Positions 15,171-36,948 are shown, counted from the stretch's first letter. The stretch: 64,000 nt of DNA from Azolla caroliniana (GCA_043228905.1 JBHGNT010000006.1:3410001-3474000); one strand, 5' to 3'. Made by a program: numbers and translations. Notes: generated by a model from the letters alone, not told the origin.

Positions 15171-18119
15171 TTATTCGTGCATGCTATACATGTTACTCAT
15201 GCAAACCAGTGCTACCACGTTATTTTCATCTAGCTGCACCAAATTCTCGAATGCCCATCTCCCAAGATCTATGTTTACCCATTTCTGACAAGCACCCAAC
15301 AAAACTGACAATACACAAACACGGTCAGCAGATGGTACATTTTCAACAACAATTGCAGCCTTTTCAAGGTGCCCGGCACGGCCGAAAAGATCAACCATAC
15401 ATGTATGGTGTTCCCGTGTTGGGATGAATCGGTAGAACATAGTCATGACATGATAGTAAAATTGTCCTTCTTCCACTAGACCTGAGTGACTACAAGCAGT
15501 CAGCAAGACAACAAATGTTACCATATCTGGCATTATACCTTCTGTTATCATATTATTGAATGAGATGAAAGCCCGTCCAACATAACCAAGCTGAGCATAT
15601 CCAGCAATCAGTGAATTCCAAGCGACGGCATCATGTAATGGCAGCTCATCGAAAACTTCTCGTGCTTTGCTAAGAGACCCACACTTGGCATACATGTCAA
15701 CTAATGCAGTGCCAAGTACAATATCTTTTCTCAATAATCCATGCTTCTTCACCTCCATATGAATCTCCTCTCCCTTGTGGATCAATCCTATATTACCACA
15801 GACTTTCAAAATGCAAGCATGAGTGACTGCATCTGGTAAGAGACCCTCATCAAGCATGCTTGAGAAGCAGTCCAGAGCTTCAGCACTAAGCCCATGATCA
15901 GCATACCCAGTGATCAATGTAGTCCAGGAAACTACATCTTGCACAGGAAGCTTATCAAACACTTCTTGGGCTTTTCCAATCTCGCCACACTTCACATACA
16001 TGCCCAGCAATGCATTACCAAGCAAATTATTTCTTTCCAGCAACCTTTGCTTCTGCAGCTCGGCGTATATCTCTTCTCCTTTTTGAACCAAGCGTAAGTT
16101 ACCGCATGCTTTCAATATACAAGTAAAGGTAACCTCATTCGGGGATATATCATTGTCTCTCATCCTTGCAAAGCAGTCCAAAGCTTGACTGCTGAATCCA
16201 TTCTGAACATAACCAGAGATCATTGCATTCCAAGAGACAATATTGGGAGTTGGAAGCTCATCAAACACTTGTTGTGCTTTCAGAAGCATGTCACACTTTG
16301 CATACATATCCACCACTGCGTTTCCGATCACAGGATTGTTTGTTATTAGCCCTCGCTTTCTCACCTCGGCGTGTAGTTTTTCTCCCTTGTCGACTGATCC
16401 TGTGTTGCCGCAAGCTTTCAAAATACAAGAAAACGTGATTGCATCCGGTTCAAAACCAGCTGCTTGCATACGCACAAAGCAGCTGAGAGCTTCATCACCA
16501 AGCCCATGCTGGACGTATCCAGAAATCAGAGCATTCCACGAGATAACATCCCTTTTGGGAAGATCAACAAACACTTTCTGTGCTTTTACAAGCATGCCAC
16601 ACTTGGCATACATGTCCACCAATGCATTTCCCAGCGCGATATTGTTTTCCAATAATCCATCTTTACTGAGTTTGACATGTATTTGTTCCCCCATCTCCAA
16701 TAATTCTAACTTGCCACAAGCTTTCAAAATACAAGCAAAAGTGGCTGCATTCGGAGAGAAGCCCTCTTTCTTCATCCTTGAAAAGCATGTTAGAGCCTCT
16801 TCACTGAAGCCATATTGAGCATACCCAGCAATCAGCACATTCCATGAGATGGCATTTCTGATGGGGAGCTTGTCAAACACTTCCTGTGCTTTTGAAAGCA
16901 CACCACATTTGGCGTACATGTCCACCAATGCGGTACCGAGCACAATGTTTTTGACAAGAAGCCCTTGTTTGTTAATCTCAGCATGTATCTCTTCTCCCTT
17001 CTCGAATGACTTTACGGTGCCACAAGCTTTCAAAACACAAGAAAAGGTGACTTCATTTGGAATAAGGCCTTGGTCTTGCATTTGGGAATAACATTTGAGA
17101 GCTTCATCAGCAAGCCCATTCTGTGCATAGGCAGCTATCAATGCAGTCCATGAGACAACATTTCGTTCTGGAAGCTCATGGAAAACTTCTAGGGCTTTGG
17201 AAATTGCTCCACATTTGCCATACATGCCAATCAAAGCACTTCCCAGAACCATATTAGTTTTCAACAGCCCTCTTCTCCTAATCTCAGCATGTACTTCTTC
17301 TCCCTTCACAAGTGATCCAATGCCACCACATGCTTTCACAACACATGTAAAGGTGATCGCATCAGGCAACATGCCCTCACCCTGCATTTGCGTGAAACAG
17401 TCCACTGCCTTGTTACCAAGTGCATGCTGGGCATACCCAGCTATTAGTGCATTCCATGTGGCAACATCACGCATCGGGAGATCATTGAACGTCTCTTGTG
17501 CTTTTGGAAGAACACCACATTTCACGTACATGTCCACTAATGCATTGCCAAGGAGCACATTGTTTCGTAATGAACCTCGCTTATGGATTCCAGCATGTAT
17601 ATATTCTCCCTTCTGAAGTAACCCTACGCTTCCACAAGCTTTTAAAATGCAAGTAAACGTGACAGCATCAGGCAAGAAGCCCTCGCTTTGCATTTGCTCG
17701 AAGCACTTCAAAGTCTCAAAACCACGGCGATGTTGGGAATACCCTGCTATGAGCGCATTCCAAGCAGCGACATCAGGCAACAATGGAAGTTCATGAAGGG
17801 CCCTTCTTGCCTCTGCAAATGCACCACATTTGGCATACATACTGACAAGGGAGGTACTAACATAAATATCCTTTTGAATCGATTCTCTTTTGAGGAATTC
17901 AGCATGCATTTGGATGCCTCTGTCCAAGTCCTTATGTTTGCCACAAGCCTTGATTGAATCCAGGAGGACATGGCGATACTGAAGGTATTCTTGATGGGAG
18001 AGGTTGGGGAGGAAATCTACCTTCTCCATCATGGGTATATTCAAGTCATCTTGGACCAATGCACAAGAGAGACGATTGAGAACACCATCCAGATATATAT
18101 ATATACATCCACCACTCAC
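15171..18119 (-). CDS. PLS-class pentatricopeptide repeat protein, E-subclass without DYW (probable organellar RNA-editing specificity factor)
   Basis: 982-aa ORF with ~8 P-L-S triplets (WNALIAGYAQ..., PDAVTFTCILKACG..., GNALVDMYAKCG). These are followed by L2/S2 (ACSHSGLVEEG; CMVDLFGRAG) and E motifs (LLGACQKW...MSNMY), then a stop. The first in-frame ATG is at 18032; the true 5' end is uncertain. Confidence 0.93.
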   Translation of the reverse strand: MSGGCIYIYLDGVLNRLSCALVQDDLNIPMMEKVDFLPNLSHQEYLQYRHVLLDSIKACGKHKDLDRGIQMHAEFLKRESIQKDIYVSTSLVSMYAKCGAFAEARRALHELPLLPDVAAWNALIAGYSQHRRGFETLKCFEQMQSEGFLPDAVTFTCILKACGSVGLLQKGEYIHAGIHKRGSLRNNVLLGNALVDMYVKCGVLPKAQETFNDLPMRDVATWNALIAGYAQHALGNKAVDCFTQMQGEGMLPDAITFTCVVKACGGIGSLVKGEEVHAEIRRRGLLKTNMVLGSALIGMYGKCGAISKALEVFHELPERNVVSWTALIAAYAQNGLADEALKCYSQMQDQGLIPNEVTFSCVLKACGTVKSFEKGEEIHAEINKQGLLVKNIVLGTALVDMYAKCGVLSKAQEVFDKLPIRNAISWNVLIAGYAQYGFSEEALTCFSRMKKEGFSPNAATFACILKACGKLELLEMGEQIHVKLSKDGLLENNIALGNALVDMYAKCGMLVKAQKVFVDLPKRDVISWNALISGYVQHGLGDEALSCFVRMQAAGFEPDAITFSCILKACGNTGSVDKGEKLHAEVRKRGLITNNPVIGNAVVDMYAKCDMLLKAQQVFDELPTPNIVSWNAMISGYVQNGFSSQALDCFARMRDNDISPNEVTFTCILKACGNLRLVQKGEEIYAELQKQRLLERNNLLGNALLGMYVKCGEIGKAQEVFDKLPVQDVVSWTTLITGYADHGLSAEALDCFSSMLDEGLLPDAVTHACILKVCGNIGLIHKGEEIHMEVKKHGLLRKDIVLGTALVDMYAKCGSLSKAREVFDELPLHDAVAWNSLIAGYAQLGYVGRAFISFNNMITEGIMPDMVTFVVLLTACSHSGLVEEGQFYYHVMTMFYRFIPTREHHTCMVDLFGRAGHLEKAAIVVENVPSADRVCVLSVLLGACQKWVNIDLGRWAFENLVQLDENNVVALVCMSNMYSMHE

Positions 18120-18200
18120 AAGGACTCTGTTTTCTTAATTTATATATATGTGTTTTTATTTTTGCTTGTATCTGCCTCTGTATGTGCCAAGTGGCCTCAA

Positions 18201-20767: not shown

Positions 20768-20994
20768 TATTAATTATATATCATACATATATATTACATT
20801 ATACATATATGTACATATATTACATATTACATATATTATACTTGATATATAAGGTATGGTATATGTATATGTATATGAATACCGTGGTGTCTAACTACTA
20901 CCAAATATTAAAGAGGGCAAGTGAGGGAATCGCGGAGAGGGATGGTGCAAGTCGCTAGATGAGGGCGCATGCGATCTGCACCGTCCAATGTGGC

Positions 20995-21215
20995 TGTGGA
21001 AAAGGCGCGAAAAAGCGTGCCAATTAAAGAGGGAGCCCGTCTCACAGAAAAAGGAGCCCGTCTCATTAAAGAAGGGCTCCACTTTGTGAAAGGGAGCCCT
21101 TGTGGAAAAGGCGCGAAAAAGCGCACCAATTAAAGAGGGAGCCCGTCTCACAGAAAAAGGAGCCCGTCTCATTAAAGAAGGGCTCCACTTTGTGAAAGGG
21201 AGCCCTTCTCATTAG
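20995..21215 (+). repeat. Left subterminal repeat array of the MULE (GGAGCCCG-core units; ~103-bp block duplicated)
   Basis: Block 'tgtggaaaaggcgcgaaaaagcg..ccaattaaagagggagcccgtctcacagaaaaaggagcccgtctcattaaagaagggctccactttgtgaaagggagccc' occurs twice. It is mirrored by CGGGCTCC units at 26750-26855. Confidence 0.9.
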
Positions 21216-22255
21216 TTTGAGGGAAGTATAAAAAGCCATTTTCTGTCATTTTTTTCTTGTTTTCAAACAAGAAGCGTGAGGTTGAGGGTTTAGGGTTTTT
21301 GAGCGCACCGCACCACCTGCTGTTTGGCAGCACCTGTTGCAGACATCTTCCGTGAGGCACAACACCGGTTGTCCGCAAGCACCTGCAGTCTAGAGGTAGG
21401 TATCATATTCCTTCTATTAGGTTTAGGGTTTTATTAGGTATCATATTCCTTCTATTAGGTTTAGGTTTTATTCCATGTCATAAAAACCATCAACCTAATA
21501 TGGATGATTGCTTGAACCTAATATGATTTTATTCCTTCTATTGTGTCTTCAAGCAATCAACCATGGTTTTGAGTAGACATGGAATAAAAAAAATACTTGT
21601 CTATGTGTATTCAAGCAATCATCATCCATATTAGGTTTGAATGTCATTATTTGAATGCTTAAATTTGCCCATGTGATTCATGCATTATTGGGCTTTTTTA
21701 TGCCCACATTTAAAGGTCAAATCTCAAATCTTGTATACATTCTTTGCGATGGCTTGACCCCAAATAATAATAATGTAACGAATGCCTTACTAAAAAAAGT
21801 TGTGTGCTATGTAAGTCTACGTAAGTATGTTTTAAGTTGGAAGTAAAACGTTGTGTCCATTATAGTATTCTAAATGATAAATGATAAATTCTTGCTGAAT
21901 GAAATTAGGATTCTCCATGAAGACCAACTATTTGTCATGAACTCATGAACTATGACTATGATTTAAATACGTATCATTATTATGGTTATCTCCCTTAATT
22001 TAGAATGTGCCCTCTATGTATATATATTACAAAAACTAAAATAAAAACTGCAAGTAGCATTCATGAATTTTAAATTATTGACATTAATATGTTAGAATTT
22101 GTTAAGATTGATCTATTTTTTGAAATCATTGACAATTTTTGTCCATTTCAAAATCCTTAACACTAATGTATTGTGTAGAAACAATAGGATAGACTCAAGT
22201 ATTCTTGAATTTAAAGACAAACATATGGTAATGTTTTGGCATGTGTTTTGTACAG

Positions 22256-24284
22256 ATGGCTAGTCGGTCCAAGACCTTCATAGACTTTGATGCGGATTGG
22301 GGTGAAACAATACCCTATGAAGGGAGGTATGGCATGAATCATTTCTCAACTTTATATTGTGTATAAATAGTGATGCTTGTTGAATGATGGTTTAGGGTTT
22401 TTGTAAGAAAGGGTGCTAGGTGCCCCAAATCCAACAATATGGATGCTGAAAACATCATTACTGAAGACTCGAACATGGATACGAACCCCATACATGACGT
22501 GGGGCCAGGTGTTGAAGATATCAGTGTAAATGGTGAGTTGATGTACATTCTTATAATCATTATTGAAGTAAGTATATATTGGGTTTTTCTAATGCAAATG
22601 TCACACCATTGTTGTAGTGGACCCCATGTCCCTCTTCAAGGCGGGAAGAGACTCGACAGGTATCAAATGTCGCACATGTATCGTTGGAGATTCATGTAGA
22701 AAAGAGGTACGATGGTTTCGCAAAAAAGTTGACATGGAGGCTCACTTACAGAAGGCACATGGCATCCGTGTAGTACTGCCTCGGGGGCTAAAGATAGAAG
22801 AAGAAGAGCAATCAACCTCCATGAGGAGTACAACCACGTCATTCTTCAGCCACTACGAAAGACAACGATCAATAAAGCGTTTTTTGGATCCGGAGCTAAA
22901 GTACAACAGGTCACGCCAATCACACATGAGGAAGTTGAGGACAAGAGCGATTAAGATCTTCAAAGCCACTCCGAACGCACTTCAAACATCCAAGGAGGCC
23001 GATTTCATTGCCCAATTCGTCAGCCAACAAATGGCCAGGTATGACGAGGGAAAGGAGCATAGGATGGCAAAATTGAAGTTGAAGATTGCGGCTGTGTCTA
23101 AAGCTTATGTAAGTAAGGTTTATGATTATGTGTGCATCTTATGTGAGTCTAAATCTAGTGTGTGAATGATTATGTGTGAATCTTATGTATGAATTTTAGT
23201 GTAAGAATCATGGAATTCCCATGCCAGAAGATGAGACACATGTCGAGATCGATGGTGGTCAAGACCAACTGTCAGAATCGACAACCCAACAACCAAGGAG
23301 GCCTAAAATCCAAATCCGCAAGAAAACAGTGGACCCCAGTAAGTTGTCGTTCATTACATCATTTGACACAGATGAGGGTGCGGACATTGGGATTGTCTTT
23401 ATTGGTCCTGGGACAATCACAAAAACATGGGATAACACAACAAGAAAAAAGTTCACTAGGTATGCCGTTATGGTGGGGGCATGAGATCAATAGTTAACTT
23501 CATGTTTTTTTTGTAGTTACTAATCTGGCCTAATAAACAGGTTTCAGGTGGCTTGTCGACGATTAGATCTAGCGGTCTTTTTGACGGAGGTAGAACTATG
23601 TTCGTTGGGCACTGTAGGAGAGATGGCATCCACATGGATGATGACCCTCTTCCACTTATGGATGGAGTACTCGTTGCCCCCCGAGATCAACAAGCGGTTT
23701 CATATTGTGGATCCACTATGGGTACAACTAGAAGGCCAAAGTGATAAGGGTGAAGACATACTCACTCGGGTCCCTAAACGGGAATATGTCTTCATTCCGA
23801 TATTGCACTCAGGGCATTGGGTGCTTTGGTTGAAGATGCGACAGACTCCTATAGGTCTCGATGCCAAGGTGAGGAGCCATATTATTTTTTGCGATCCACT
23901 AAATCATCATCCGACTATCGGCATGAAGACATTGGGTGATTTGGTTGTACAACATATCTCTAGCGCCACACACGACCATTGCATCATCAACAACGAGCGG
24001 TTCCAGGTATTGCATATCCCAACCCAACCTAATGGGACGGATTGTGGGTATTACGTGATGCAAACCATTCGAATGTTGGTCGAGGAGTTCATTCAAGGAT
24101 TTGAGTCTGATCAATTTGTAAGTATTTATGAGAATTGAATTTATGAGAATTGAATTTGGGCTTAGGTTGATGGCATCTTGTGGTGTAGGGTAAGGAGCAA
24201 TGGTTTGGATTCGAAGATGTGCAGCTCCTTCGGAAAATCATGGCAAAATGGACACGAAGGACTCTGGGCATAGGGTTATTTTAA
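22256..24284 (+). CDS. Transposon-borne C2H2-zinc-finger / Ulp1 (peptidase C48, SUMO protease)-like protein, ~543 aa; exons 22256-22326, 22396-22532, 22618-23108, 23200-23459, 23541-24117, 24189-24284
   Basis: All five GT-AG introns join the ORF fragments in frame (1632 nt, no internal stop). It has a CRTC...HLQKAH zinc-finger-like motif and the C48 catalytic motifs FIPILHSGHW, FCDPL and TQPNGTDCGYYV (His-Asp-Cys triad plus oxyanion Gln). Confidence 0.85.
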
Positions 24285-24349
24285 TCACTAGCATGTTGTA
24301 CTTTGTAACATCAAACATATGATCTCGATTTACTATCTCATGTGGATTG

Positions 24350-24720
24350 TCAACTTTTTTGTAATATCTGGTAAATAGTTGAATCTCATTTTGGTTGTAT
24401 ATGACTCAATTTGATGTACATTTTGGTTGTGAGTCTTATTGTGTGAATCTCATTTTGGTTGTATATGTCTTTGTTGATGTACATTCTGGTTGTGAGTCTT
24501 ATTATTTGAATCTCATTTTGGTTGTATATGACTCAATTTGATGTACATTCTCATTTTTGTAATATCAAATCAATATTTGAATCTCATTTTGGTTGTATAT
24601 GACTCAATGTGGACTCTATCTGAAAATCATTTTGTAATATCTGGTAAATAGTTGAATCTCATTATGAATCTCATTTTGAATCTCATTTTGGTTGTATATT
24701 TGGTTGTATGTTTTGGGTGT
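24350..24720. repeat. Internal tandem repeat array of the MULE
   Basis: Core 'gaatctcattttggttgtatatgactcaatttgatgtacatt' is reiterated about 5-6 times with variants. Confidence 0.85.
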
Positions 24721-24939
24721 CAAAAGAATAAAACTAATAGCTTATTGACAAGTAGTCACGGCAATGGTTTTTGAGAAAGGCCAAGAAAGAGTAAGTATAT
24801 AGAAAGAGTGTTGTAATCAAAGAACGTTGTTGTAGAAAGAGTAAGTATATAGAAAGAGTGCTTCGGTCCTTGTTGTAAACAATACGAAAGACATAACAAG
24901 ACTCAATGTCAATCTTATTCAAAGACATAACAAGACTCG

Positions 24940-26565
24940 ATGTCAATCTTCTTCAAACCAATGGCAATCGACTCGACATTTAAAACAAACCAATTCGGGC
25001 TACCATTATATGCAGCAGTTGCCCCCAACGCCATGGGAATTGGGATCCCATTATGGTACATGCTTTGTAGTTCTGATAAGGGGTCAAACCATGAGCAAGT
25101 GGCATTAGAAACTTGTTTGAGAGTCATATTCGCAAGGATGCCCATGGTGAGGCCAAATGCGATAGTGATCGATAAATGTTGGACATCATATAATGCCATA
25201 ACTAATGTGGTTGCAACAGACCGTCAATCTTGGATTGTTGTAAATGGGCAACGGTCCCAAACACATTGTCGACTTTTGTTGTGTCAGTTTCACGCCAAAA
25301 AGTCATGGGTGGACAACTTGTTGCCAAAAGTAAGTGCAAATGAGAGAATCCATCTTTATCAACGAATGTGCCAACTGATGCAATGCATTACTGAATCATC
25401 ATTCAATGCAATGTGTGAGGAGTTAAAGTTAGAATATGCGGACAAGCCCGGTGTTTGGCAATATATAGAAGGAGGATGGTGTGGTTTGACATGTGTGTGG
25501 AGGAAACTCTGGCCCAAGTTTGGTAGAATGTTCAACTATGGACACGTTGACACTACCAATATTGTGGAAAGACATTGGCATTTTATCAAGTATACTGCCT
25601 TGAGGGGAAGAATAAACCGATCAATTACCGACCTTTTGCATGTCTTAATCGGGGATAGTGAAACTGGCACTTGCATAGGAGGAACGGTAATAGAGTGGTA
25701 CAAGCAACGACAAGAAATATGTGAGAGTGGTTGGTTTGCACCCCGTGCGAATTGTAGGGATCAAAGGTCCCAACTTAAAGAAGCGGAGAGAATATTGGAA
25801 AGGTATGTCGACAATACTTCCACAATTGAAATTGTCGACGAGGCCCGATATTGGTTTAGAATCTTGAGCATGACGACTCCCACTCTATGGTATAATGTCT
25901 CACTCCAATGCTCATATTGTGATTGCCAAGACATTGTTAGTAAATGTAAGCATTTACTAGGTATCCGAATGATTATTGAGAGGCATATGCCACATTTATG
26001 TGGCTCATTACCTTTTATAGATCACGCGACCCAAATGCGAATGGACCATAATACAGAAATAGAAGTGGAGGCAGAGGTAGAGCAAGTAGAGGAGACAAAC
26101 CCCACAATATCCGAGATTGAATCATTCAAGTCCAAAATACAAACGGTCGTGAAAGCACTTCAATGTCTAGAGCAAGGGTTAGGAACCCTCGACCGTGCAA
26201 CTATTGTCGAAGGTATACAAACATTGGAAGATGTGGCTGAGAAGGTGTATCGCGTTGGTGCACCAAAATCAACCAATGAAGAAGATGGTAGATCAATAAG
26301 TCGCAACCAACAAATCAGTGCCAAAAGAAGTGCAACAATAGACATCTCGCAAGAACTTATTGGCAACTCCCCAAACACTTCCAAATCCCACTCCGGAAAA
26401 CTACAAAGAGGTGCTAGTCGGGCTAGGAGGAGATTGCCATTGGTTGACCATGAGAAGGTTCGGTGTTTGCGTTGTGATGGCTTGACCTTGACTTCAAGGG
26501 ACTCAAATGTTACATGCTGTAAAAATTGTGGTTGCATCTTGCAATCATCCCGACATGAGCCATAA
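24940..26565 (+). pseudogene. MULE (MuDR/FAR1-type) DDE transposase with SWIM zinc finger, N-terminally truncated
   Basis: Motifs IDSTFKTNQFGLPLY (D1), IVIDKCW (D2), LCQFH (CxxH), TTNIVERHW (E), SWIM CDC...CKH and a C-terminal CLRC...CKNC are present. D1 is only ~10 aa from the ORF start, so the N-terminal DNA-binding region is missing. Confidence 0.88.
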
Positions 26566-27050
26566 TCTTAATATGTAACGTGTATATTCATATTTCATTT
26601 TAGGGTTGTCAACATTTGACATTTTAATATTTTATGTAAGACATGTTATTTGAATCTTTAGGTTTTGTTGAGAAATTTTATGATCAGTTTCATGGCAAAT
26701 ATTTGTTGTACACTTACAATTTTGTGGAGTTTTTGATGTTTGTTGCTACAGAGTCGGGCTCCTTTTGACAGAGTCGGGCTCCTTCTTACTGATGTGGTCT
26801 AACAGCGGGGCTCCTTTTGACAGAGTCGAGCTCCCTTTCGCAGAGTCGGGCTCCTTGTGATAGACGTTGTCAGCTTTTTATCCAACTTGGACGGTGGAGA
26901 TCGAACGCGCCAACAACGGTGCGACCTGCACCGTCCCTCTCCGCGATTCCCCCACTCGCCCTCTTTAATATTTGGTAGCATCTAATCATGAGCATATGAA
27001 TACTATTGCATGTATGTATATATATGTATGTGAGAATAATAGAGATTATT

Positions 27051-27084
<34 letters not shown>

Positions 27085-27109
27085 GAAGAGAGGATAAGGC
27101 TGTAGAGCT

Positions 27110-28848
27110 ATGGCTATAGGGATTTCGATGGCTTCCTGCCCCGCCACGACCTCCTGCTGGGATTTCACCTCCCTGCGCTCCTCTCTGCCTACATTTCGAG
27201 CTTCTGTTAAACCCCAAGCTCATCGTCTCCGAGTCGCCCCATTACAAGCCTTCCGCGGCCTTGCCAAACAGAACCCCCTTCAGCTTACAGGTATTTGGAT
27301 TCCTCAACTCTTTACCTGTACAAATTGCAGAGTTTGAGAAGTGTTTCTCTACTTTTGGATCGATGGAATGAATGCTCTTTGGCTGGTGGTCTGTGTTGCC
27401 AGCTCTGACGAATTTTTGGGGCTAGAAAATGATGCCACAGTTTTTCGTGCCTGTTTTTTTTGTGGATGTGATATCAGCAGTTTGTGATTGACAATATTGC
27501 CAGTTGTGAAAATTTAGGTCTTGAAATTGATGTGAGGAGGTATAGCTTTTTTCTATGCAGTTGTAAAGCCTTATAATCTGTCCTTTCTATCATGAGAAAT
27601 GGGAGAACAGGAAGTTGGGCCTATAAATTTAGTTTTGGCTTTCGATTTAGGGTTTGTGATATCATTGAAATATCAGAAATTTATGTTACTGAATAAATTT
27701 TTTAGGATTGTTTGTGAGGATTTTGAATTTGTGGCATCATGGAAAATGGATATTAGCTATTAAAATTTAAGGTTTTCATCCAGTTAGGGAAATGGAGGTG
27801 TTTCTTTTTTTAGATATGAAGATTTAAGGTTTATGCCATCATGGAACATGAAAGAGAAGGATGTTGCTAACTATAAAATGTTAGATTTTTTTTGGGATAT
27901 TGTGGAAAATGGCTGAAATTGATGTGGACTATGAGATTTAGAGTTTCTGCCCTAAAGGTAAATGAAAGTAAATGATGGTAGGGACGAGGACTTTTCATTC
28001 ATTTTTTGAAGATTTATGATTTGTCACCATGGAACATGGCAGAAAGGATGTCAGCTATCAAAATCTAGGGATTTTGTTGAGTCATGAAGATTTAGGGTTT
28101 TTGTATAAAGTAAGCACCGAAAATTTTTGTTTTCTTTTTAGATTTTGGAAAATGAGCTGTGGAAGTGTAGTATTTTTTATCTGGTTATGGAAATTTGAGG
28201 TTTGTGCCTTCATTGGAAATAGCAGAAAAGTATATCAGCTTTGAAAATCTGGGGTTTTTTACTCTAGACTTGTTTCATGAGGAAATTTGCTGAAAAGTGT
28301 GTCATCTTAGGGTTTTTTATCAATTTCATCTTTGGAAAATTAGGACGCAGTGAATTTCAACCACGGAAAACTAGGTTTTGTTGCAGTTATAAGGAATGGC
28401 AGGGAGAATCCTCATCGTCTCTCTCTTTTTTGTTGTAGAATCATCCGATTTCAGTGGGGCAACCTTTGGGGTTTCCAATGGTGCCCGTGTGTTTGCAATG
28501 CGACATGGAAAGAAGGTTCCAAAGCTTAATAGGCCTCCAGATCAACGAAAGGCCCTTCTCCGTGGACTTACCACCGAGATTTTAAGACATGGAAGGATCA
28601 AGACAACTAAGACTCGTGCAAGAGCCATGAGGAAGTATGTTGACCACATGATCACACTTGCCAAAGGAGGTTCACTGCATCAACGGAGGCAAGCTCTTGG
28701 TTTTCTATATGATAAGAGCTTGGTGCATGCCCTGTTTGCAGAGGTTCCTGATAGATATGGAGAACGTAATGGTGGGTACACTCGAATCATCCGAACTATG
28801 CCTCGACGAGGAGACAATGCTCCCATGGCCTTCATTGAACTTGTCTAA
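27110..28848 (+). CDS. RPL17: Plastid 50S ribosomal protein L17 precursor (~196 aa); exons 27110-27290 and 28439-28848
   Basis: Exon 1 is a Ser/Ala/Arg-rich transit peptide. A phase-1 intron joins it in frame to [41 protein letters not shown]...[25 protein letters not shown], the bL17 signature. Confidence 0.96.
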
Positions 28849-29883: not shown

Positions 29884-31031
29884 CAAAGGTTGTTGCATGT
29901 ACATATGGGAGAAATGTGAATGATATCTATTTAGTTTTAATGGATGTCATCAATGAGAATATAAGTAATAAAGTATCTAGAAAACAATGCATTCATTTGT
30001 CTCAACTAAAATAACATGGGGTATATAGTGCAATTTATGTACCAAGTTTATGTGACCATTGATTTAATCATTTTTATTAGATACTCATTGATCTAAACAT
30101 TCTAAGTACGTTTGGTAATATCTCCTCAAGTCAAAATAAGGGATATGGTAGGAAACTTGGGGACAATTGATCAATTGAATAATTTTCGTTATGTATTCAT
30201 TGATTAAAATATTTAAAGAATGATGAAATCTCATGCAAGATCTTTGGAAAAGCTTTGTGAACTTTGCTATTTATTCATCATTCATATTCGTTTCCACATA
30301 CATAGGAAGATCCCCAAACAAAGCCACTGTCCTCAAACGCCATAGAGAGTCTCAACTTGTATAGTTTTGAGAGTCATGTTGGCAAAAAAATGCACATTTT
30401 CTGTATGTTGAACTGTTGTTTATAAAAACCAGAGGCTAATTATCCTCTTCATATGAGGAAGTATGGGCAAGATCTATAATACAAATAGCTGCTTGATTAA
30501 GATAAAAAAAATCCTCATTAGAGATGTCACAACTCTGCTGATTATGCAACCATTCATTATTCATGGTTAAAGATGATGATGTACTCAAGGATTTTAAGCC
30601 GTTGTGCCTTTGCCCCTGCTTTTTCTCTGATCCACATCTATAGAAAACCTAAATACTATTGCCATGTCAGATTGGTGTCTTTTTGCTTTCATTATCTATG
30701 TTAGTAAAAGATTTTTATATGCTTTGTTAATATAATTATAACAATGTGGCAGCAAAATGGATAACAACACGATCTTCTATACCACCATAATCTGTGAGTA
30801 CGGATTATAGCGCGACGATCGATACCTGAAACCAACTGATCTATATCCTCTGATATAAACCCTTTGGCATATACACATAACTATTCTATGGCTGTAGTAT
30901 ATATAGAGACACACACACGTGATATATACATGTAAATCTACACATAACAAAGCTTACAGAGACTCTATATTTAAGACTAAAAGAAAGATAGGAGGGTGTT
31001 GTGAGATTTTGTTGTTTTACCCTATTAGTAG

Positions 31032-34000
31032 TTAGTAGGAACTGAACAAGTGAGCCACTGAGGTCCAACCATCGAACCAAGACTTGTCCAAACATGGAGG
31101 AGAAAAGCTGAGTTGGAACATTTCCTTGGACGCAGACCCATGGCTTGTACCCCACAGTCCAAAAAGTCGAGCAACTAAGTCTGCACTCAATTTGATGTGC
31201 TCCTCGTTCTCAGGATTTGTCCAGATGAGATAGGCTAACTTGACTTTGCGCTCTTTCGCATCCAATGGGATGCCCCACTGCTTGTAGATCGTATCCCTTT
31301 GATCAGCTGTCATTCCAGTTTTTAAGTGTTTGACTATCGACTCCCTCTCGCGCTTGAGATTGCGCACACTGTATGTTCAGAAACACAGAATGTAAGATGT
31401 TCAAGTTGAACAACAAAGTACGAACTTGCAGGTATAAAGACCTCGATACAGTATGTGCTATCTAAAACATTATTTCACATCCGCATTCTATCAATGGGAA
31501 GTATAATAAAAGATCATGTCGTTCAATTGCAGCCACTGAAAATTAAGGCATGATTCTATCTTAACCAAGTGTACTTTGCAACAACCTGCAGCAGGATGCC
31601 TATGTCATTAATGTGATGTTTTTTAGCCCCACATAGTTGATCCCATCACTAGAATATGTAGTGTAGTCCTGAGGCAAGCTTTGGGCTCGAAGGAGAAGAA
31701 TAAAAATTCTGAGGCTCATGCAACATAATAAAATCCCTTTTAAAGATATAGAGGGAACTTATTACCTCAGAACAGGGCTTGCAACATGGCTCTCTCTTCC
31801 AACCTTTCTCGTGGGTTTCAGATGCTGATTCCTCAACCATGTTAGCCTTCGTAGCTCGACCTCGATATAAATAGCATCTGCGGGGTCTCCACGGAACAGA
31901 AGATAGAATTGTGATCTGTGTATGATTGAAACATGACAAGCATCCCAGAGTTCAAAGATCTCCTTTCGCTTCATATAGAAATCTGATTTCCATTTCGCAG
32001 GTGACAGTGTAATGCCAACCAAGTTAATGGATTCATCTTCATTACTCCCATTCCTCTCAAGCTCCAATACCTTCATAATTCAAAATAATCTCTGTATGCA
32101 AATATATGCATGCAAAGAAACTCAACGAGAATTTTATGTAACTGGAGGTAGACATTCTTTACCTGAAAAGCTAGTAGTTGCTTCTGGTACTGAAGTTTTG
32201 CAATTCTCTCCTTAAGATCGGTTATATACGCATAAACACTCCTAATATTCTCCTCTGCAAAATGAAAAACAAGCATTACAGACACCCACACACAGAAAAA
32301 AGGCAGTTTGGAATCTTCTCCATTCGCATAAGGTTCCATATTTGACATATTTTCAAGTTAACCTGCTCGTGGAGGAATCTTTTCATTGAGTGTAAAGTTA
32401 TTCTTTGAAGAAGCCATGTCTAATTGATGGTGGTTTGCATCTGAAGAGCTTCGGTGACTATTTAAACTACTTCGAGTTTCATTCTCAGCTATCAAGAGAG
32501 GTACTGTTCCAATTATAGCCGTCATTTTAGGCACACCAAGCTCTTCCACCAACAAATGCAAATTCACAAGAACCTTGTCTAAATCAATAAGATTCAGCTC
32601 AGATTCTCCATTTTTCTCTCTCTGCTTTGCTACAATCCTCTGAATTTCATCTTTCAGAGATATGCTTCCTGTGCTTTCCTCCATGATCCCATCTTCAGCA
32701 ATGGAATAATCTTTCACAAGGTAACTGGTTATACAAGACTTGTAGATTTCATTGATCTCAGCTTGAAGCCTTGTTACACTCTCAATTACTTTCTCATTCA
32801 TGCCGGATTGTGCCAACTGTAGGCATTCGATCTCCTTCTGGACTGCTTCAAGAGCCTGATTTGCATGTCGTGCAAGTTCATTTTGTAAATGCTCTAGTTT
32901 GTATATTTCCTGAAGAAGAATGGTTGAAGCAGATGTATTTTCCTTCTCCCTAAACTTTACAAGCAATTTTTCTGATGGTCTTCCATCCATCTGTTTAACT
33001 TTTTCATGTTTAATGCAAGGCTCATCATCTCGTTCCAACGATCCATTGCTTGAAGGAGTTTGGAAATTTTGATCATCAAACGAATCTCTCAAAAGTGGTA
33101 AATCAACAATGTTGATTTTGGACAGAGTCTGTAACATTCAAAAGCAGATAAATTTCCAATCAAAACACACATAACTTGGTCGTCCTTGGTTTACAATTTA
33201 GCATTAATGTTCAATAACTTACTAATGTTCTAGTTTTCTCACTAGCTTCCATTTTTTTACGAAACCCATCCAGCTGCGACTCTGCAAGGTCACGTTGTTG
33301 CCAAGCTTTACGCATCTCTTCTTGCATCTGTTTGTGCATAGCGTCCATGTCTAATTAACATGTGTAAATGAGACAAGTAAAAGAGAGAAAATAATCAATG
33401 GAACCAATACATATACACCAGAATCATTATACTCCACTTACAACAAACATGAATTGTCATCTGTTTGTGCATAGCGTCCATGTCTAATTAACATGTGTAA
33501 ATGAGACAAGTAAAAGACAGAAAATAATAAATGGAACCAATACATATACACCAGAATCATTATACTCCACTTACAACAAACATGAATTGTACCTTTTGAA
33601 TCTGCAGATTTTTCTCTACTATCAATAAATCAGAAGAATTTCGAGCAGAGTATGTAGAGATCCGAAGCTTTGCCTCAAGCAATGCCACTTCTCTTTTCAA
33701 TTGCTTGATCAATTCTTTATCAGAAATCACCTATATGATGAACCACCATATTTGAAAATTTTAAAACAATTTCCAACATTGGACTTACACTGCTCGTACT
33801 ACAGCTAGTTTCTCACCATGTTTACTTGGGCCCTATTTGTCACTTCCTTTGCACAGGAAGCAAAGAAAAGAGTGTTCCTTGTTTGCTCAACATGTCTATT
33901 GGATCCACTTATTGTACATATTATTGCAGTCCGAGCATTGCCTCCGAGTGAATTTTGTAAAATACGAGTAAGTTTGGAATCTCTGTAAGGAACATGACAT

Positions 34001-36948
34001 GCTTTCACCTGGTTTGGTTCACTACACAAGCAATAGACTTGTTCTCAAAATCATTACGATGGGAGATATTGTTTCCTCCTACAATATGGGATCCTCTCAA
34101 CTACTAAATTGTTATGAAAAACTCTACTAGAAACTGAACGTTGTATACCTTAGTTTGCGGATCACAGTACTTAATGTTAGAAGACTGCGATTAATATAGC
34201 AACCTTCCTTCAGTCGAGTTCCCTCCGAATGAGGAAATGATGCACGTTCACTTCCTGCAAGATCAACAAAGTTCTGTAGAAAGGTTTGAACTTTCCTTAG
34301 TCCAAGAATAAAAATTATAGCCCATGAATCAAATAAGAAAAAGATACCATCTAGAGAGAGCAAACTCACCAAGATTGCAATCAAAGATTTCACAGGCCCA
34401 TCATCTGCTACTATTCGTGGAGAGCTCTCAATGGACTGTCCCAAAATAATAATAAATAGAATCAGAAGAACATATTAATAATAAATGAGCTCCTCGAATA
34501 CTATATAAAATTGTTCAGAGATCTTTCCCACCAGTCTGATAATTTGATGAGATCTCGAACTGTGGTCATTTAATGATGTCTCTCCAACTTGTCTGTGAGC
34601 TGCAAAAGAGTGGAACTTCTTCAGCAGGCTTAAAACCGTTCGGAAATTAAAGACAATAAATTATAAAGACCTTCACAGATAGCCAAAAGACTCTGAAGGT
34701 GATCTTTATCTTTAATAATATTCTCTCCTAACTTCTCTATCACAGTTCCTCTCTGTATAAGTAAAGAGAACGACAGCATCTTCAGATTGACATCATGGTA
34801 CAATTTCATCCTTATGCCCAGAACACAAGAAATAGCATTTGTATAACTCCGATGGACATCTATAGAATTCACCAACTTTGCACATTTAAAAAAAATGATA
34901 CAAAGAAGTTGAATCCAAAATATGCAGAGTCCTATACTGAAAACCATATTTAGCTCTGGTTATATGCATCTGTCCTTGTTCTCTTACAATGTAAACACAT
35001 GTTATTGCATGAAGAATTTTCAGATGTTTTGCCACTATCTGCGGCTTCATTAAATTTCAGTAATTCAACAATAAATGGTTTATTGTGTTGGAGGCAATAT
35101 ATGGATCAAGATGGGCTAGTTAATTACAAAACCTCAGGATCATCCATTAGTCGCAAGGGGCCACTCTCAGGATTGAGAAGATCCGTCGTCCCCTCGTTAT
35201 GTATCTCTATCGCCGAAAATTTTAGCAGAAATATACGATCATCGTTCTATTGACAAGAGAAGAAAATAAAAATGCTTCTGATGTTGATCTTTACAGCTAT
35301 ATACTGCGTATCTAGACTATGCTTTGATGTACATATGAATACAAATATACCTGCTTAATGTATGTAAATATATCATCCACAGCATTTTCTGTAATGCTTT
35401 GCATTGTGTATGTCTTTCCACTGCTTGTCTGTCCATATGCAAATATGGTTGCTGAGATGCAGAGAAAATGTCAGTTTAGAAATATTTATATATAAAGCGA
35501 GCAAGAGAGAGAGTGAGAGAGAGAGAGCTTACCATTCTTTCCTTTTAGGGCAGAGAGGGCAACATCTTTAGCACCTTCCTCATAAACTTCTTTACATGTT
35601 GTTTCTGCTCCGAATACACGATCTTCAATCATGAAACACAGAATTTAACAGTGCCAATGTCAAACAAAAGAAGCATTTGAACATGAAAATTTATGACATT
35701 ATTGTATGAAGAAAACCATTTGAACATGAAAATGCATTCATTACATTGTTACGCAAAAAAATCAATCAAACACAAAAGTTTATGATAAATTTAAGCCAAA
35801 AGAACCAATCAAATGCAAAACAAGATGAAATTGTTGAGTGGAAGATTGACAATCGAAAGGGATAATTATGACATTGACCAATCGAATGCAAAAATATATG
35901 ACATTGTTCAGTGGAAGATTAACAATTGATAGTGAACAGTATCACATTGTTGAACAAAAAGAAACAGTTGTATGCAAAAATTTAATGACATTGTTGAGCA
36001 GAAGAAAAACAATCAGATACAGTGGAAGCATCAATCCAGCAGGATAAAAGACATCCATTATTCCTATTATCCTCTACCATGTGATACTGTATTAATCTCT
36101 CTCACTTTTGCAATGTATTTTTTCAGACGTGTACTTCAGATACTATCCCAGAAAACCTTCAATGATGCAGGAAGAATCTCTCCCCTTCATCACAATTTCT
36201 ACTAGAATTATCAAATTTTTTATCACATTTGACAACGCAGTGCGAGATATACATGGCATTTTCTTTTATTATTCTCAACTAACGATTACCTAAGATCAAT
36301 GACTTTGATCTCACTTTCAGACGGATATTGTGGCTGAGAGAGAATGAGAGTGAGAGAGATCAGACATTAAAGGTGAGAGAATCGACATGCCATTCTTCAT
36401 GGTGAATATTTAAAAGATATCATTTTGAAGATATTACTCTGGAGGACATGGGATATGGCAGGTCAAGCAGCTCTGCATTATGCTATAATTCAGAGATGCT
36501 TAAAGAAGGAGGAATACTTAACATGTATATAAAGTTTTCACTGACCAAAAGCATATGACTGAGGGGTCAAAGATCGTTGGCGATCGTTGCTGTAAGTACA
36601 GGTTATGGTGTTTTTCTCTGTACCATAGCATTCCCATACAGAGAAGTCATGCCTTGCCATCTCTCTATCATTGATCGGCCTCACACGAACACTCACAAAT
36701 ATCTTCTCTTCTGTGATCTTAACTCCATTCTTCTTTGATGCCCTCGAAGAAGAGGATGATGATGATGAATTAATATTGTTGGTATTGATATTGAATTCTG
36801 ATACGACACCGAATTCCTCCTCCGATTCAGCCATGGATGCAGGAGTATTACTCATAAGGTTGATAACTTCATCATCCTCCATGTCGTGAACGTTAATGTT
36901 GTTGTCAATGTCAAAGAAGCCATGGTTGAGGATGCTAGATCTAGACAT
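31032..36948 (-). CDS. NACK1: Kinesin-7, NACK1/HINKEL/TETRASPORE-like; 15 coding exons (36948-36546, 35622-35533, 35451-35351, 35246-35133, 34752-34671, 34599-34532, 34435-34370, 34273-34149, 34021-33817, 33730-33593, 33327-33223, 33128-32363, 32254-32163, 32070-31766, 31368-31032)
   Basis: Motor motifs [34 protein letters not shown] and [14 protein letters not shown]. The C-terminal DUF3490-type tail reads [37 protein letters not shown]. Exact orthology within kinesin-7 is not established. Confidence 0.9.
33325..33590. repeat. 133-bp tandem duplication of almost an entire kinesin intron
   Basis: 33325-33457 is nearly identical to 33458-33590, and each copy includes the acceptor caaacag|ATG on the minus strand. 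Confidence 0.92.

What the first reader, a model, noticed from the sequence alone, without database searches (positions are those of the whole stretch)
22256..24284. Intact spliced zinc-finger/SUMO-protease gene inside a MULE whose transposase is broken
Seen: six exons splice in frame into ~543 aa, with an acidic N-terminus, a C2H2-like finger (CRTC..HLQKAH), a basic helical region and a Ulp1/C48 domain with intact H-D-(Q)-C residues. A TATA-like TATAAAA lies at ~21227, right after the subterminal repeats, and there is a probable 5'UTR intron (donor ~21396, acceptor 22255). Known: Ulp1-carrying MULEs (Kaonashi-type) exist in angiosperms, and SUMOylation contributes to heterochromatic silencing. 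Inference: a DNA-binding finger fused to a deSUMOylase could be a sequence-targeted anti-silencing factor (VANC-like logic) acting on the element's own GGAGCCCG repeats. I do not recognise this fusion architecture in a seed-free plant MULE. Its integrity next to a dead transposase suggests selection or domestication.
Basis: partly seen in the sequence, partly recalled or inferred. Interest (0 to 1): 0.8.

Follow-up and report, generated by a model that had tools for sequence, protein, structure and literature searches.

The report
Fern transposon zinc-finger SUMO-protease accessory gene
This is a young, internally deleted copy of a many-copy plant Mutator transposon, not a gene tamed by the host; its second gene joins a zinc-finger-like module to a SUMO-protease-like enzyme, has relatives in Adiantum ferns, and likely binds the transposon's own repeat arrays to help keep the element switched on.

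Summary
The six-exon, 543-aa gene is real. It has GT-AG splice sites, a Peptidase_C48 domain (H412, D438, Q482, C488) and a finger, whose conserved ligands are C90, C96, H112 and H117 rather than the CxxC. Domestication is not supported. The genome holds at least 150 matches to each of two exons. The element (20883-26993, 10-bp target duplication) is a deletion derivative 98.7% identical to a copy with a complete transposase. Its dead transposase remnant is just as stop-free, and sister copies carry stops. The gene is under purifying selection between subfamilies (dN/dS 0.18-0.34). The same architecture occurs in two Adiantum species, once apparently beside the same transposase type. Full elements carry motif arrays before both genes and at the right end, and three subfamilies use three different motifs (54 of 54 scorable copies concordant), the VANDAL/VANC pattern. 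The N-terminal module matches no VANC domain. The transposase's own DNA-binding region diverges almost as fast, so it could be the binder instead. Ulp1-carrying MULEs and anti-silencing Ulp1-VANC genes are known in angiosperms, so this is a new variant and a possible convergent system. The scan had not noted this family before.

The parts
20873..20882 (+). left target-site duplication (10 bp, identical to the right one)
   Evidence: 9-bp duplications flank other copies
20883..26993 (+). whole non-autonomous MULE copy, 6111 bp
   Evidence: ends defined by 23 other loci printed with both termini and
20883..20990 (+). left terminal inverted repeat (58-nt core 20898-20955, 93% complementary to 26921-26978); its inner core is similar in subfamilies A, C and D
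20995..21207 (+). left subterminal array: two 106-bp units holding 8 GGAGCCC sites on either strand
   Evidence: 12 sites in the 6.1-kb element against 1 in the other 57.9 kb of the window
21227..21233 (+). TATA-like box directly after the array
   Evidence: sequence; same position in A and B copies and in C
21396..22255 (+). predicted 5' UTR intron; the acceptor abuts the ATG
   Evidence: donor conserved in L049, L106 and subfamily C; acceptor use suggested by X2 contigs but with a foreign upstream sequence; donor not seen in RNA
22256..22326 (+). exon 1 (71 nt in both A and C)
   Evidence: junction to 22396 supported by X2 contig ends
22396..22532 (+). exon 2, variable low-complexity region
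22618..23108 (+). exon 3: C-x5-C-x15-H-x4-H finger (C90 22677, C96 22695, H112 22743, H117 22758), then a basic four-helix region (23 K/R against 12 D/E)
23200..23459 (+). exon 4, fast-evolving linker
   Evidence: 33% identity A against C
23541..24117 (+). exon 5, Ulp1/Peptidase_C48 core (H412 23815, D438 23893, Q482 24025, C488 24043)
24189..24284 (+). exon 6, end of the protease and stop
   Evidence: joint 24117-24189 in 4 polyA reads and one contig
24379..24700 (+). AT-rich 32/63-bp tandem repeats in the 3' region
24957..24963 (+). deletion junction (5-nt filler) that removes about 2.2 kb: the internal motif array, the transposase promoter and codons 1-436
   Evidence: same junction in L035
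24963..26565 (+). stop-free 3' remnant of the MULE transposase (residues 437-969 of the full protein)
   Evidence: Pfam MULE E 9.5e-10
26748..26864 (-). right subterminal array, 20-bp units with 4 GGAGCCC sites
26890..26993 (-). right terminal inverted repeat, outer 11 bases degenerate in this copy
26994..27003 (+). right target-site duplication

Best explanation
This is a recently inserted deletion copy of a many-copy Mutator-like family whose second gene is conserved under selection across subfamilies; the protein likely binds the family's own short-motif arrays with its finger and basic helices and would bring a Ulp1-type protease there, which is predicted to remove SUMO or a related tag from silencing proteins and keep both promoters usable. 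Shown: gene structure, copy number, deletion history, selection between subfamilies, Adiantum homologues, position and subfamily specificity of the arrays, spliced sense transcripts of some family members. Inferred: zinc and DNA binding, which protein reads the arrays, protease activity, substrate, effect on silencing. The gene is intact in this copy because the copy is young, not because the host keeps it.
For: Copy number: 153 matches to exon 5 (150 of 403 candidates scored), 150 to exon 3, 110 to the transposase. History: 98.7% identical to L031, which has a 969-aa transposase. Private changes pooled over 9 young copies are 57 nonsynonymous, 21 synonymous and 7 stops in the accessory gene and 58, 25 and 4 in the transposase, as expected for neutral decay. 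Between subfamilies dN/dS is 0.34 (A-B) and about 0.18 (A-C, dS saturated). Catalytic H, D, Q, C are kept in 60/61, 58/60, 54/59 and 59/60 copies; finger C90, C96, H112, H117 in 60/62, 60/62, 62/63 and 63/64. Three of the four ligands are invariant in 19 aligned sequences that include distant homologues, and the fourth is kept in 90% or more. Adiantum capillus-veneris KAI5063453.1 and A. nelumboides MCO5587038.1 have finger, helices and C48 in one chain. The latter's next locus tag (L7F22_040984) is 96% identical to the tail of a full-length homologue of this transposase. Arrays: left, internal and right in full elements, and nearly absent from coding DNA. Motif and accessory type agree in 54 of 54 scorable loci out of 68 (AB 26, C 26, D 2; 14 had no array). 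The TIR core stays similar across A, C and D, and a Mutator transposase is reported to bind TIRs (bioRxiv 10.64898/2026.08.24.746577, passages). VANC targets form family-specific tandem motifs in non-coding DNA, and VANC diverges faster than the transposase (PMC5735166, passages); here exon 3 is 46-49% identical between subfamilies and the transposase core 75-87%.
Against: The transposase N-terminal region also diverges fast (53-59% between A, C and D; 47-59% over the FAR1-like part), and no recombinant separating the two genes from the motif was found, so motif concordance may be plain shared descent (three lineages, not 54 events). A transposase alone can activate its own family. CG and CHG transitions run about 10 to 30 times the A/T rate in coding DNA and are not clearly lower in the arrays (A: CG 10/465 against 66/1762 in the transposase; C: 6/499 against 16/2223), so no footprint of array demethylation was seen. 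In the profile alignment the Trp of the yeast Ulp1 WLND motif has no Trp counterpart (its role in the Gly-Gly tunnel is recalled), so SUMO specificity is open; a review doubts that KIU proteases act on SUMO (PMC6117577). One Adiantum homologue has Arg in place of the catalytic His (P0080). Two X2 contigs use an upstream intron 3 donor that would shift the frame and drop the protease. None of 56 X5 reads was 99% or more alike to this copy.
Confidence: 0.45

Rival explanations
1. The transposase reads the arrays. The accessory protein is a transposition helper that acts on the transpososome or on repair proteins at the cut site, removing SUMO or ubiquitin-like tags; its finger and helices serve protein contacts or non-specific DNA binding.
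For: The transposase N-terminus diverges almost as fast as exon 3 and has a weak FAR1 DNA-binding match (E 0.03, below cut-off). The right array has no promoter to serve. AtMu1 transposase alone binds and activates cognate copies. Ulp1 domains recur in Ginger, Mutator and CACTA elements, and a repair-related role has been proposed (PMC2836005; PMC2528002).
Against: The internal array lies about 4 kb from either end, directly before the transposase gene, which fits regulation better than synapsis. The TIR core is conserved while the array motif changes. Many distant homologues carry a basic GRP motif after the finger (its likeness to an AT-hook is recalled), though this family has LPRG there.
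Confidence: 0.3
2. The accessory protein binds the arrays but works mainly as a plain activator or chromatin shield. The protease has another substrate (NEDD8, ubiquitin, self-processing) or only binds its substrate.
For: No Trp at the WLND position. Structure hits do not separate SENP7, Ulp2, SENP5, NEDP1 and NopD, and come from a weak model (pLDDT 47.8). A protease-less splice form appears in X2. Most VANC proteins work without Ulp1.
Against: The triad and oxyanion Gln are kept across subfamilies, protease dN/dS is 0.31 (A-B) and 0.14 (A-C), and the best sequence match in the PDB is yeast Ulp1 (E 9e-7).
Confidence: 0.17
3. This copy has been domesticated and is kept by the host.
For: It is the only one of 10 young subfamily-A copies with all five canonical introns and no stop or frameshift (L031 is also open but has one acceptor changed).
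Against: It is still inside TIRs and a perfect target duplication. It has only 4 private codon changes, 2 of them nonsynonymous. The useless transposase remnant is equally open, as in 5 of 9 copies tested. No read matched it at 99% or more. Five other fetched copies pass the same strict test (subfamily C) and four B copies are open to a stop at codon 541.
Confidence: 0.03
4. The gene is a passively carried captured host gene (Pack-MULE cargo) without function for the element.
For: C48 is lost sporadically from MULE clades (PMC4948706, passages).
Against: Purifying selection, conserved introns and ligands in three subfamilies and in Adiantum; no single-copy host parent appeared among the profile hits in the genome (70 of 407 candidates scored).
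Confidence: 0.05

Closest known systems
Kaonashi (KIU) genes and C48-MULEs of angiosperms (Hoen et al. 2006, not read; seen through passages of PMC4948706, PMC2528002, PMC6117577, PMC13317346)
   Same: A MULE with a second gene carrying a Peptidase_C48 domain, many copies, protease function unknown. Direct orientation and TIR-bearing forms are already described in melon, rice and grape.
   Different: Fern host range. The N-terminal part is a C-x5-C-x15-H-x4-H finger plus basic helices, with no DUF1985, DUF287 or plant mobile domain match. The transposase clade's named relatives are in Adiantum and Selaginella. Arabidopsis KI-MULEs are non-TIR with the gene reversed. Common origin of the protease domains was not tested.
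VANC/VANDAL anti-silencing system, including Ulp1-bearing VANC (PMC5735166 passages; Sasaki et al. 2022 not held, known only through PMC13317346)
   Same: Fast-evolving accessory gene; family-specific short motifs in tandem arrays in non-coding regions; transposase core far more conserved; Ulp1 fused at the C-terminus in KIU-type VANC.
   Different: No sequence match to VANC domains. VANC is described as dicot-specific and MAIN-like (PMC13547354). TIRs are kept here. No binding or demethylation data exist for this family.
Spm TnpA and AtMu1 transposase as sequence-specific activators (bioRxiv 10.64898/2026.08.24.746577, passages)
   Same: Clusters of family-specific motifs near element ends that diversify with the lineage.
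   Different: Those binders are transposases or transposase-derived; this accessory protein shows no such derivation and carries a protease.
Ginger1 and animal Mutator transposases with Ulp1 or OTU domains (PMC2836005, passages)
   Same: Ulp1-type protease carried by a cut-and-paste transposon.
   Different: There it is fused to the transposase; here it is a separate six-exon gene with its own promoter.

Membership tests
MULE (Mutator superfamily) | MULE transposase domain | tested here: met
   PF10551 at 39.2 bits (cut-off 27.6) in the remnant and 38.3 in the full copy
MULE (Mutator superfamily) | TIRs and 9-11 bp target-site duplication | tested here: met
C48-MULE (broad sense) | second gene with a Peptidase_C48 domain inside the element | tested here: met
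KIU / VANC of VANDAL elements | DUF1985 / DUF287 domains | tested here: not met
   Pfam scans of exons 3-5, of C and D exon 3 and of six long Adiantum proteins gave no such family; exons 1-2 were not scanned
KIU / VANC of VANDAL elements | MAIN-like fold of the N-terminal domain | tested here: inconclusive
   Model of exon 3 (pLDDT 79.6) gave no match at E 0.001 or Z 8; absence from a list excludes nothing
KIU / VANC of VANDAL elements | degenerate or absent TIRs | tested here: not met
   58-nt core 93% complementary here; near-perfect in other copies
KIU / VANC of VANDAL elements | family-specific tandem motifs in non-coding regions | tested here: met
KIU / VANC of VANDAL elements | protein binds the motif and causes loss of methylation | not testable with these tools
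   The indirect mutation-spectrum test showed no clear protection of the arrays
KIU / VANC of VANDAL elements | protease domain descends from the same capture as KIU | not tested
Ulp1/SENP SUMO proteases | His-Asp-Cys triad with oxyanion Gln | tested here: met
   H412, D438, Q482, C488 align with yeast Ulp1
Ulp1/SENP SUMO proteases | two Trp residues of the Gly-Gly tunnel (role recalled) | tested here: inconclusive
   The Trp after the His is kept (59 of 61); the WLND Trp has no Trp counterpart in a weakly aligned stretch
Ulp1/SENP SUMO proteases | cleaves SUMO | not testable with these tools
   needs an assay
Classical C2H2 zinc finger | C-x2-4-C spacing and Pfam zf-C2H2 match | tested here: not met
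   Conserved spacing is C-x5-C-x15-H-x4-H; no zinc-finger family. The model has a beta-hairpin and the two His on one helix, so an atypical finger remains likely
Domesticated (exapted) transposon gene | single or low copy, TIRs lost, selection on the locus | tested here: not met
   synteny in other genomes could not be tested

The most novel reading that the evidence does not exclude
Fern Mutator elements evolved a sequence-specific anti-silencing system independently of VANC: an undescribed finger-plus-helix DNA-binding module, co-diversifying with subfamily-specific arrays at both promoters, that tethers an active deSUMOylase to the element's own chromatin. It would be a convergent counterpart of eudicot KIU and the simplest system in which to test why transposons keep capturing Ulp1.
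Probability: 0.3. Interest if true: 0.8.

Novelty: new variant of a known kind. Interest (0 to 1): 0.52.

Why it matters
Why DNA transposons of plants and animals repeatedly carry Ulp1 proteases is stated as unknown in the papers read. This family offers three natural pairs of protein and candidate motif in one genome, with intact alleles of the accessory gene, so motif-swap binding tests and catalytic mutants can be run directly. If the accessory protein is the binder, sequence-specific transposon anti-silencing extends beyond flowering plants and has arisen twice with the same enzyme on unrelated targeting modules. The particular copy in the window is ordinary.

Tried and rejected
Domestication: rejected. 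Search for longer proteins with exon 5 as query found nothing among 170 candidates (weak evidence); the Adiantum relatives came only from the exon-3 profile. Atlas: exon 3 gave only leads under 0.9, an Adiantum full-length protein no usable hit, exon 5 generic C48 clusters. Fold searches of exon 3 returned generic helical bundles (best Z 6.9) and, for the finger, a 43-residue archaeal ribosomal chain (6skg_Bo, Z 3.5, rmsd 2.6, 42 aligned; E 0.42), which is not significant; the finger was not folded alone. No PDB sequence match for exon 3. The protease model was poor (pLDDT 47.8, exon 6 missing). The mutation-spectrum test for demethylated arrays was uninformative. No recombinant element separating accessory type from transposase type was found among 68 loci. 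A more distant transposase copy (L082) had no accessory match in the 9.9 kb fetched. Run search: no RNA holder listed on record; X1 is probably DNA and X2 and X3 are only guessed to be RNA. P0117 does not align directly with the local transposase; the link runs through P0118. Papers: searches for fern + Mutator + Ulp1 + transposable (2 unrelated hits) and fern/MULE/transposase/protease/C48 (15 listed) showed no description of this family; PMC6446971 has no mention of Ulp1, C48 or ferns; PMC12903978 concerns rice only. Sasaki et al. 2022 was not held; its range survey and supplements could mention fern elements. No complex prediction was run.

Full report
Observation. The six exons named under parts splice with GT-AG ends into 543 aa. 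Exon 5 matches Peptidase_C48 above the curated cut-off, and a profile of 17 family copies finds yeast Ulp1 as best PDB sequence (E 9.1e-7). H412, D438, Q482 and C488 are present. The TATA-like box at 21227, the donor at 21396 and the acceptor at 22255 are in the sequence. The finger needs correction: C87 is Cys in 30, Ala in 31 and Ser in 1 of 62 copies, while C90, C96, H112 and H117 are kept in 60/62, 60/62, 62/63 and 63/64 (the script's labels are one residue low). AlphaFold on a 26-row alignment gives a beta-hairpin, a short helix and a helix bearing the His residues, a disordered link, then four long helices (pLDDT 79.6, pTM 0.49).

The element. It spans 20883-26993 with a perfect 10-bp target duplication; 23 other loci printed with both termini fix the ends, with 9-bp duplications in the cases checked. 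Against locus L031 (98.7% identical) the window copy lacks about 2.2 kb: an internal motif array, the transposase promoter and codons 1-436. L035 has the same junction and L037 aligns without the segment too, so the deleted form was itself copied. The genome search gave 153 matches for exon 5, 150 for exon 3 and 110 for the transposase, all lower bounds. I fetched 80 stretches around a chosen subset of these, giving 68 oriented loci with the window.

Why this copy is intact. It carries 4 private codon changes in the accessory gene (2 synonymous, 2 not) and 7 in the transposase remnant, with no stop in either. The remnant cannot be made, yet it is stop-free here and in 5 of 9 young copies, so an open frame of this length is expected at this age. 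Pooled private changes in the nine copies are 57 nonsynonymous, 21 synonymous and 7 stops for the accessory gene and 58, 25 and 4 for the transposase. Against this, the window copy is the only one of 10 young A copies that passes the strict test. Five C copies pass it too, and four B copies are open up to a stop at codon 541. Singleton transitions at CG and CHG run about 10 to 30 times those at A/T in coding DNA, which points to methylation after insertion. Domestication is not supported.

The gene matters to the family. Subfamily C has the same five introns although the protein is only 46% identical. dN/dS is 0.34 between A and B and about 0.18 between A and C, where dS is saturated. A profile of exon 3 found 84 proteins among 1.84 billion. 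Of 20 clusters looked up from this and the later profile and transposase searches, those with an organism name are all Adiantum capillus-veneris or A. nelumboides; the follow-up search gave 10 hits, 9 named, all Adiantum. Several are full-length with finger, helices and C48, and the A. capillus-veneris copies lie on many chromosomes-sized contigs. In A. nelumboides the gene L7F22_040983 has as next locus tag a protein 96% identical to the tail of a transposase that is 38% identical to the local one over 978 columns; adjacency is inferred from consecutive tags and accessions. Many homologous open frames end in the same run-on into a donor site at the end of exon 3, which supports the 23109 donor. 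The transposase also has Selaginella relatives; whether they carry the gene is unknown. The host is likely a fern, by these relatives.

RNA. No holder was on record as RNA. Three polyA runs with the same species label show reads on the strand expected for sense transcripts, with the last intron removed exactly as predicted (4 reads on the window in X5; 4, 1 and 2 reads on L049 in X5, X6, X7). Contigs of X2, only guessed to be RNA, support introns 4 and 1, use the intron 2 acceptor with a different exon 2 end, and use an upstream intron 3 donor (23039) in two contigs, which would shift the frame and end the protein before the protease. Joint lists were truncated (33 and 1 rows hidden). None of 56 X5 reads was 99% or more alike to the window, and the runs carry three organism codes, so family members are transcribed at a low level but this copy is not shown to be.

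Arrays. Full elements carry one short motif in three arrays: before the TATA box of the accessory gene, before the transposase gene, and at the right end; coding DNA has almost none. The motif is GGAGCCC-type in A and B, GTYRCCCAA in C and CCCGGGTTA-type in D. Scoring only DNA downstream of the accessory gene, motif and accessory type agree in 54 of 54 loci with an array; 14 of 68 had none. These are three lineages, not 54 independent events. The TIR core stays similar across them. Exon 3 is 46-49% identical between subfamilies, the transposase core 75-87%, but the transposase N-terminus only 53-59%, so either protein could read the arrays. Synonymous distance is much larger for the accessory gene than for the transposase (A-B 0.23 against 0.017; A-C 2.8 against 0.66), which suggests the cassette is exchanged between elements. 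The arrays show no clear protection from CG decay.

Mechanism. Most likely the basic finger-helix module binds the arrays and holds a Ulp1-type protease on the element's promoters, where it would remove SUMO or a related tag from silencing factors. Every step after the anatomy is inferred. I did not read a paper establishing SUMO-dependent transposon silencing in ferns; one search gave only a listing. The main rival is that the transposase reads the arrays and the accessory protein helps transposition; a third is binding without SUMO cleavage, since the WLND Trp seems absent.

Comparison with what is known. C48-MULEs are widespread in angiosperms, with and without TIRs, and their function is called unknown (PMC4948706, PMC2528002, PMC6117577; passages). 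A review states that KIU genes are VANC genes with a captured Ulp1 domain and that KIU-carrying VANDALs hypomethylate related copies through non-coding motifs (PMC13317346, passages); the primary paper was not held, and PMC10398659 was read in passages only for its VANC summary and reference. VANC has DUF1985 and DUF287 domains and tandem target motifs (PMC5735166, passages) and is called dicot-specific and MAIN-like (PMC13547354, passages). The fern protein fails the domain and TIR tests for VANC but shows the same genetic layout. Two paper searches aimed at ferns found no description of it; the proteins are in databases as hypothetical. The scan's own notes hold no look-alike, but list two transposons of this genome with another accessory enzyme and arrays and an animal element with a Ulp1 remnant; I did not check these.

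Verdict. The domestication reading fails. The family is a new variant of a known kind, with a fair chance of being a convergent, testable anti-silencing system. Interest 0.52.

Noticed in passing
window 26994-28848: The element ends roughly 120 bases before what looks like the transit-peptide exon of a plastid ribosomal protein L17 gene (Pfam Ribosomal_L17 on 28393-28845), so it may sit in that gene's promoter.
   Followed up: partly
window 15171-18134 (-) and about 31000-36000 (-): Flanking host genes: a 987-codon single-frame PPR gene with 306-bp repeats, and a kinesin with DUF3490.
   Followed up: partly
flanks of many copies: Most insertions lie in TA/CA-rich microsatellite-like DNA, which suggests a target preference.
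   Followed up: no
L031 against L046 and L068: Transposases are 99% identical while accessory proteins are 85% identical, so the accessory cassette seems to have been swapped between elements.
   Followed up: partly
L092 and L109 (G000:C5:22.88-22.90 Mb): Four tandem, stop-free copies of a divergent exon 3 lie before one protease exon and a decayed transposase.
   Followed up: no
window 23180-23497: Exon 4 is also open in a second frame, the one entered by the upstream 23039 donor seen in X2; a protease-less isoform is possible.
   Followed up: partly
L049:6725: Two X2 contigs continue from the acceptor before the ATG into unrelated sequence, which may be a host exon spliced into a family copy.
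   Followed up: no
loci L051-L060 (subfamily C): None of the fetched C copies has both genes intact: those with an open transposase have a damaged accessory gene and the reverse. In A and B, L046, L068 and probably L031 have both.
   Followed up: partly
window 20939 and 26937: Contigs join the two TIRs on opposite strands, which hints at MITE-like derivatives of the family.
   Followed up: no
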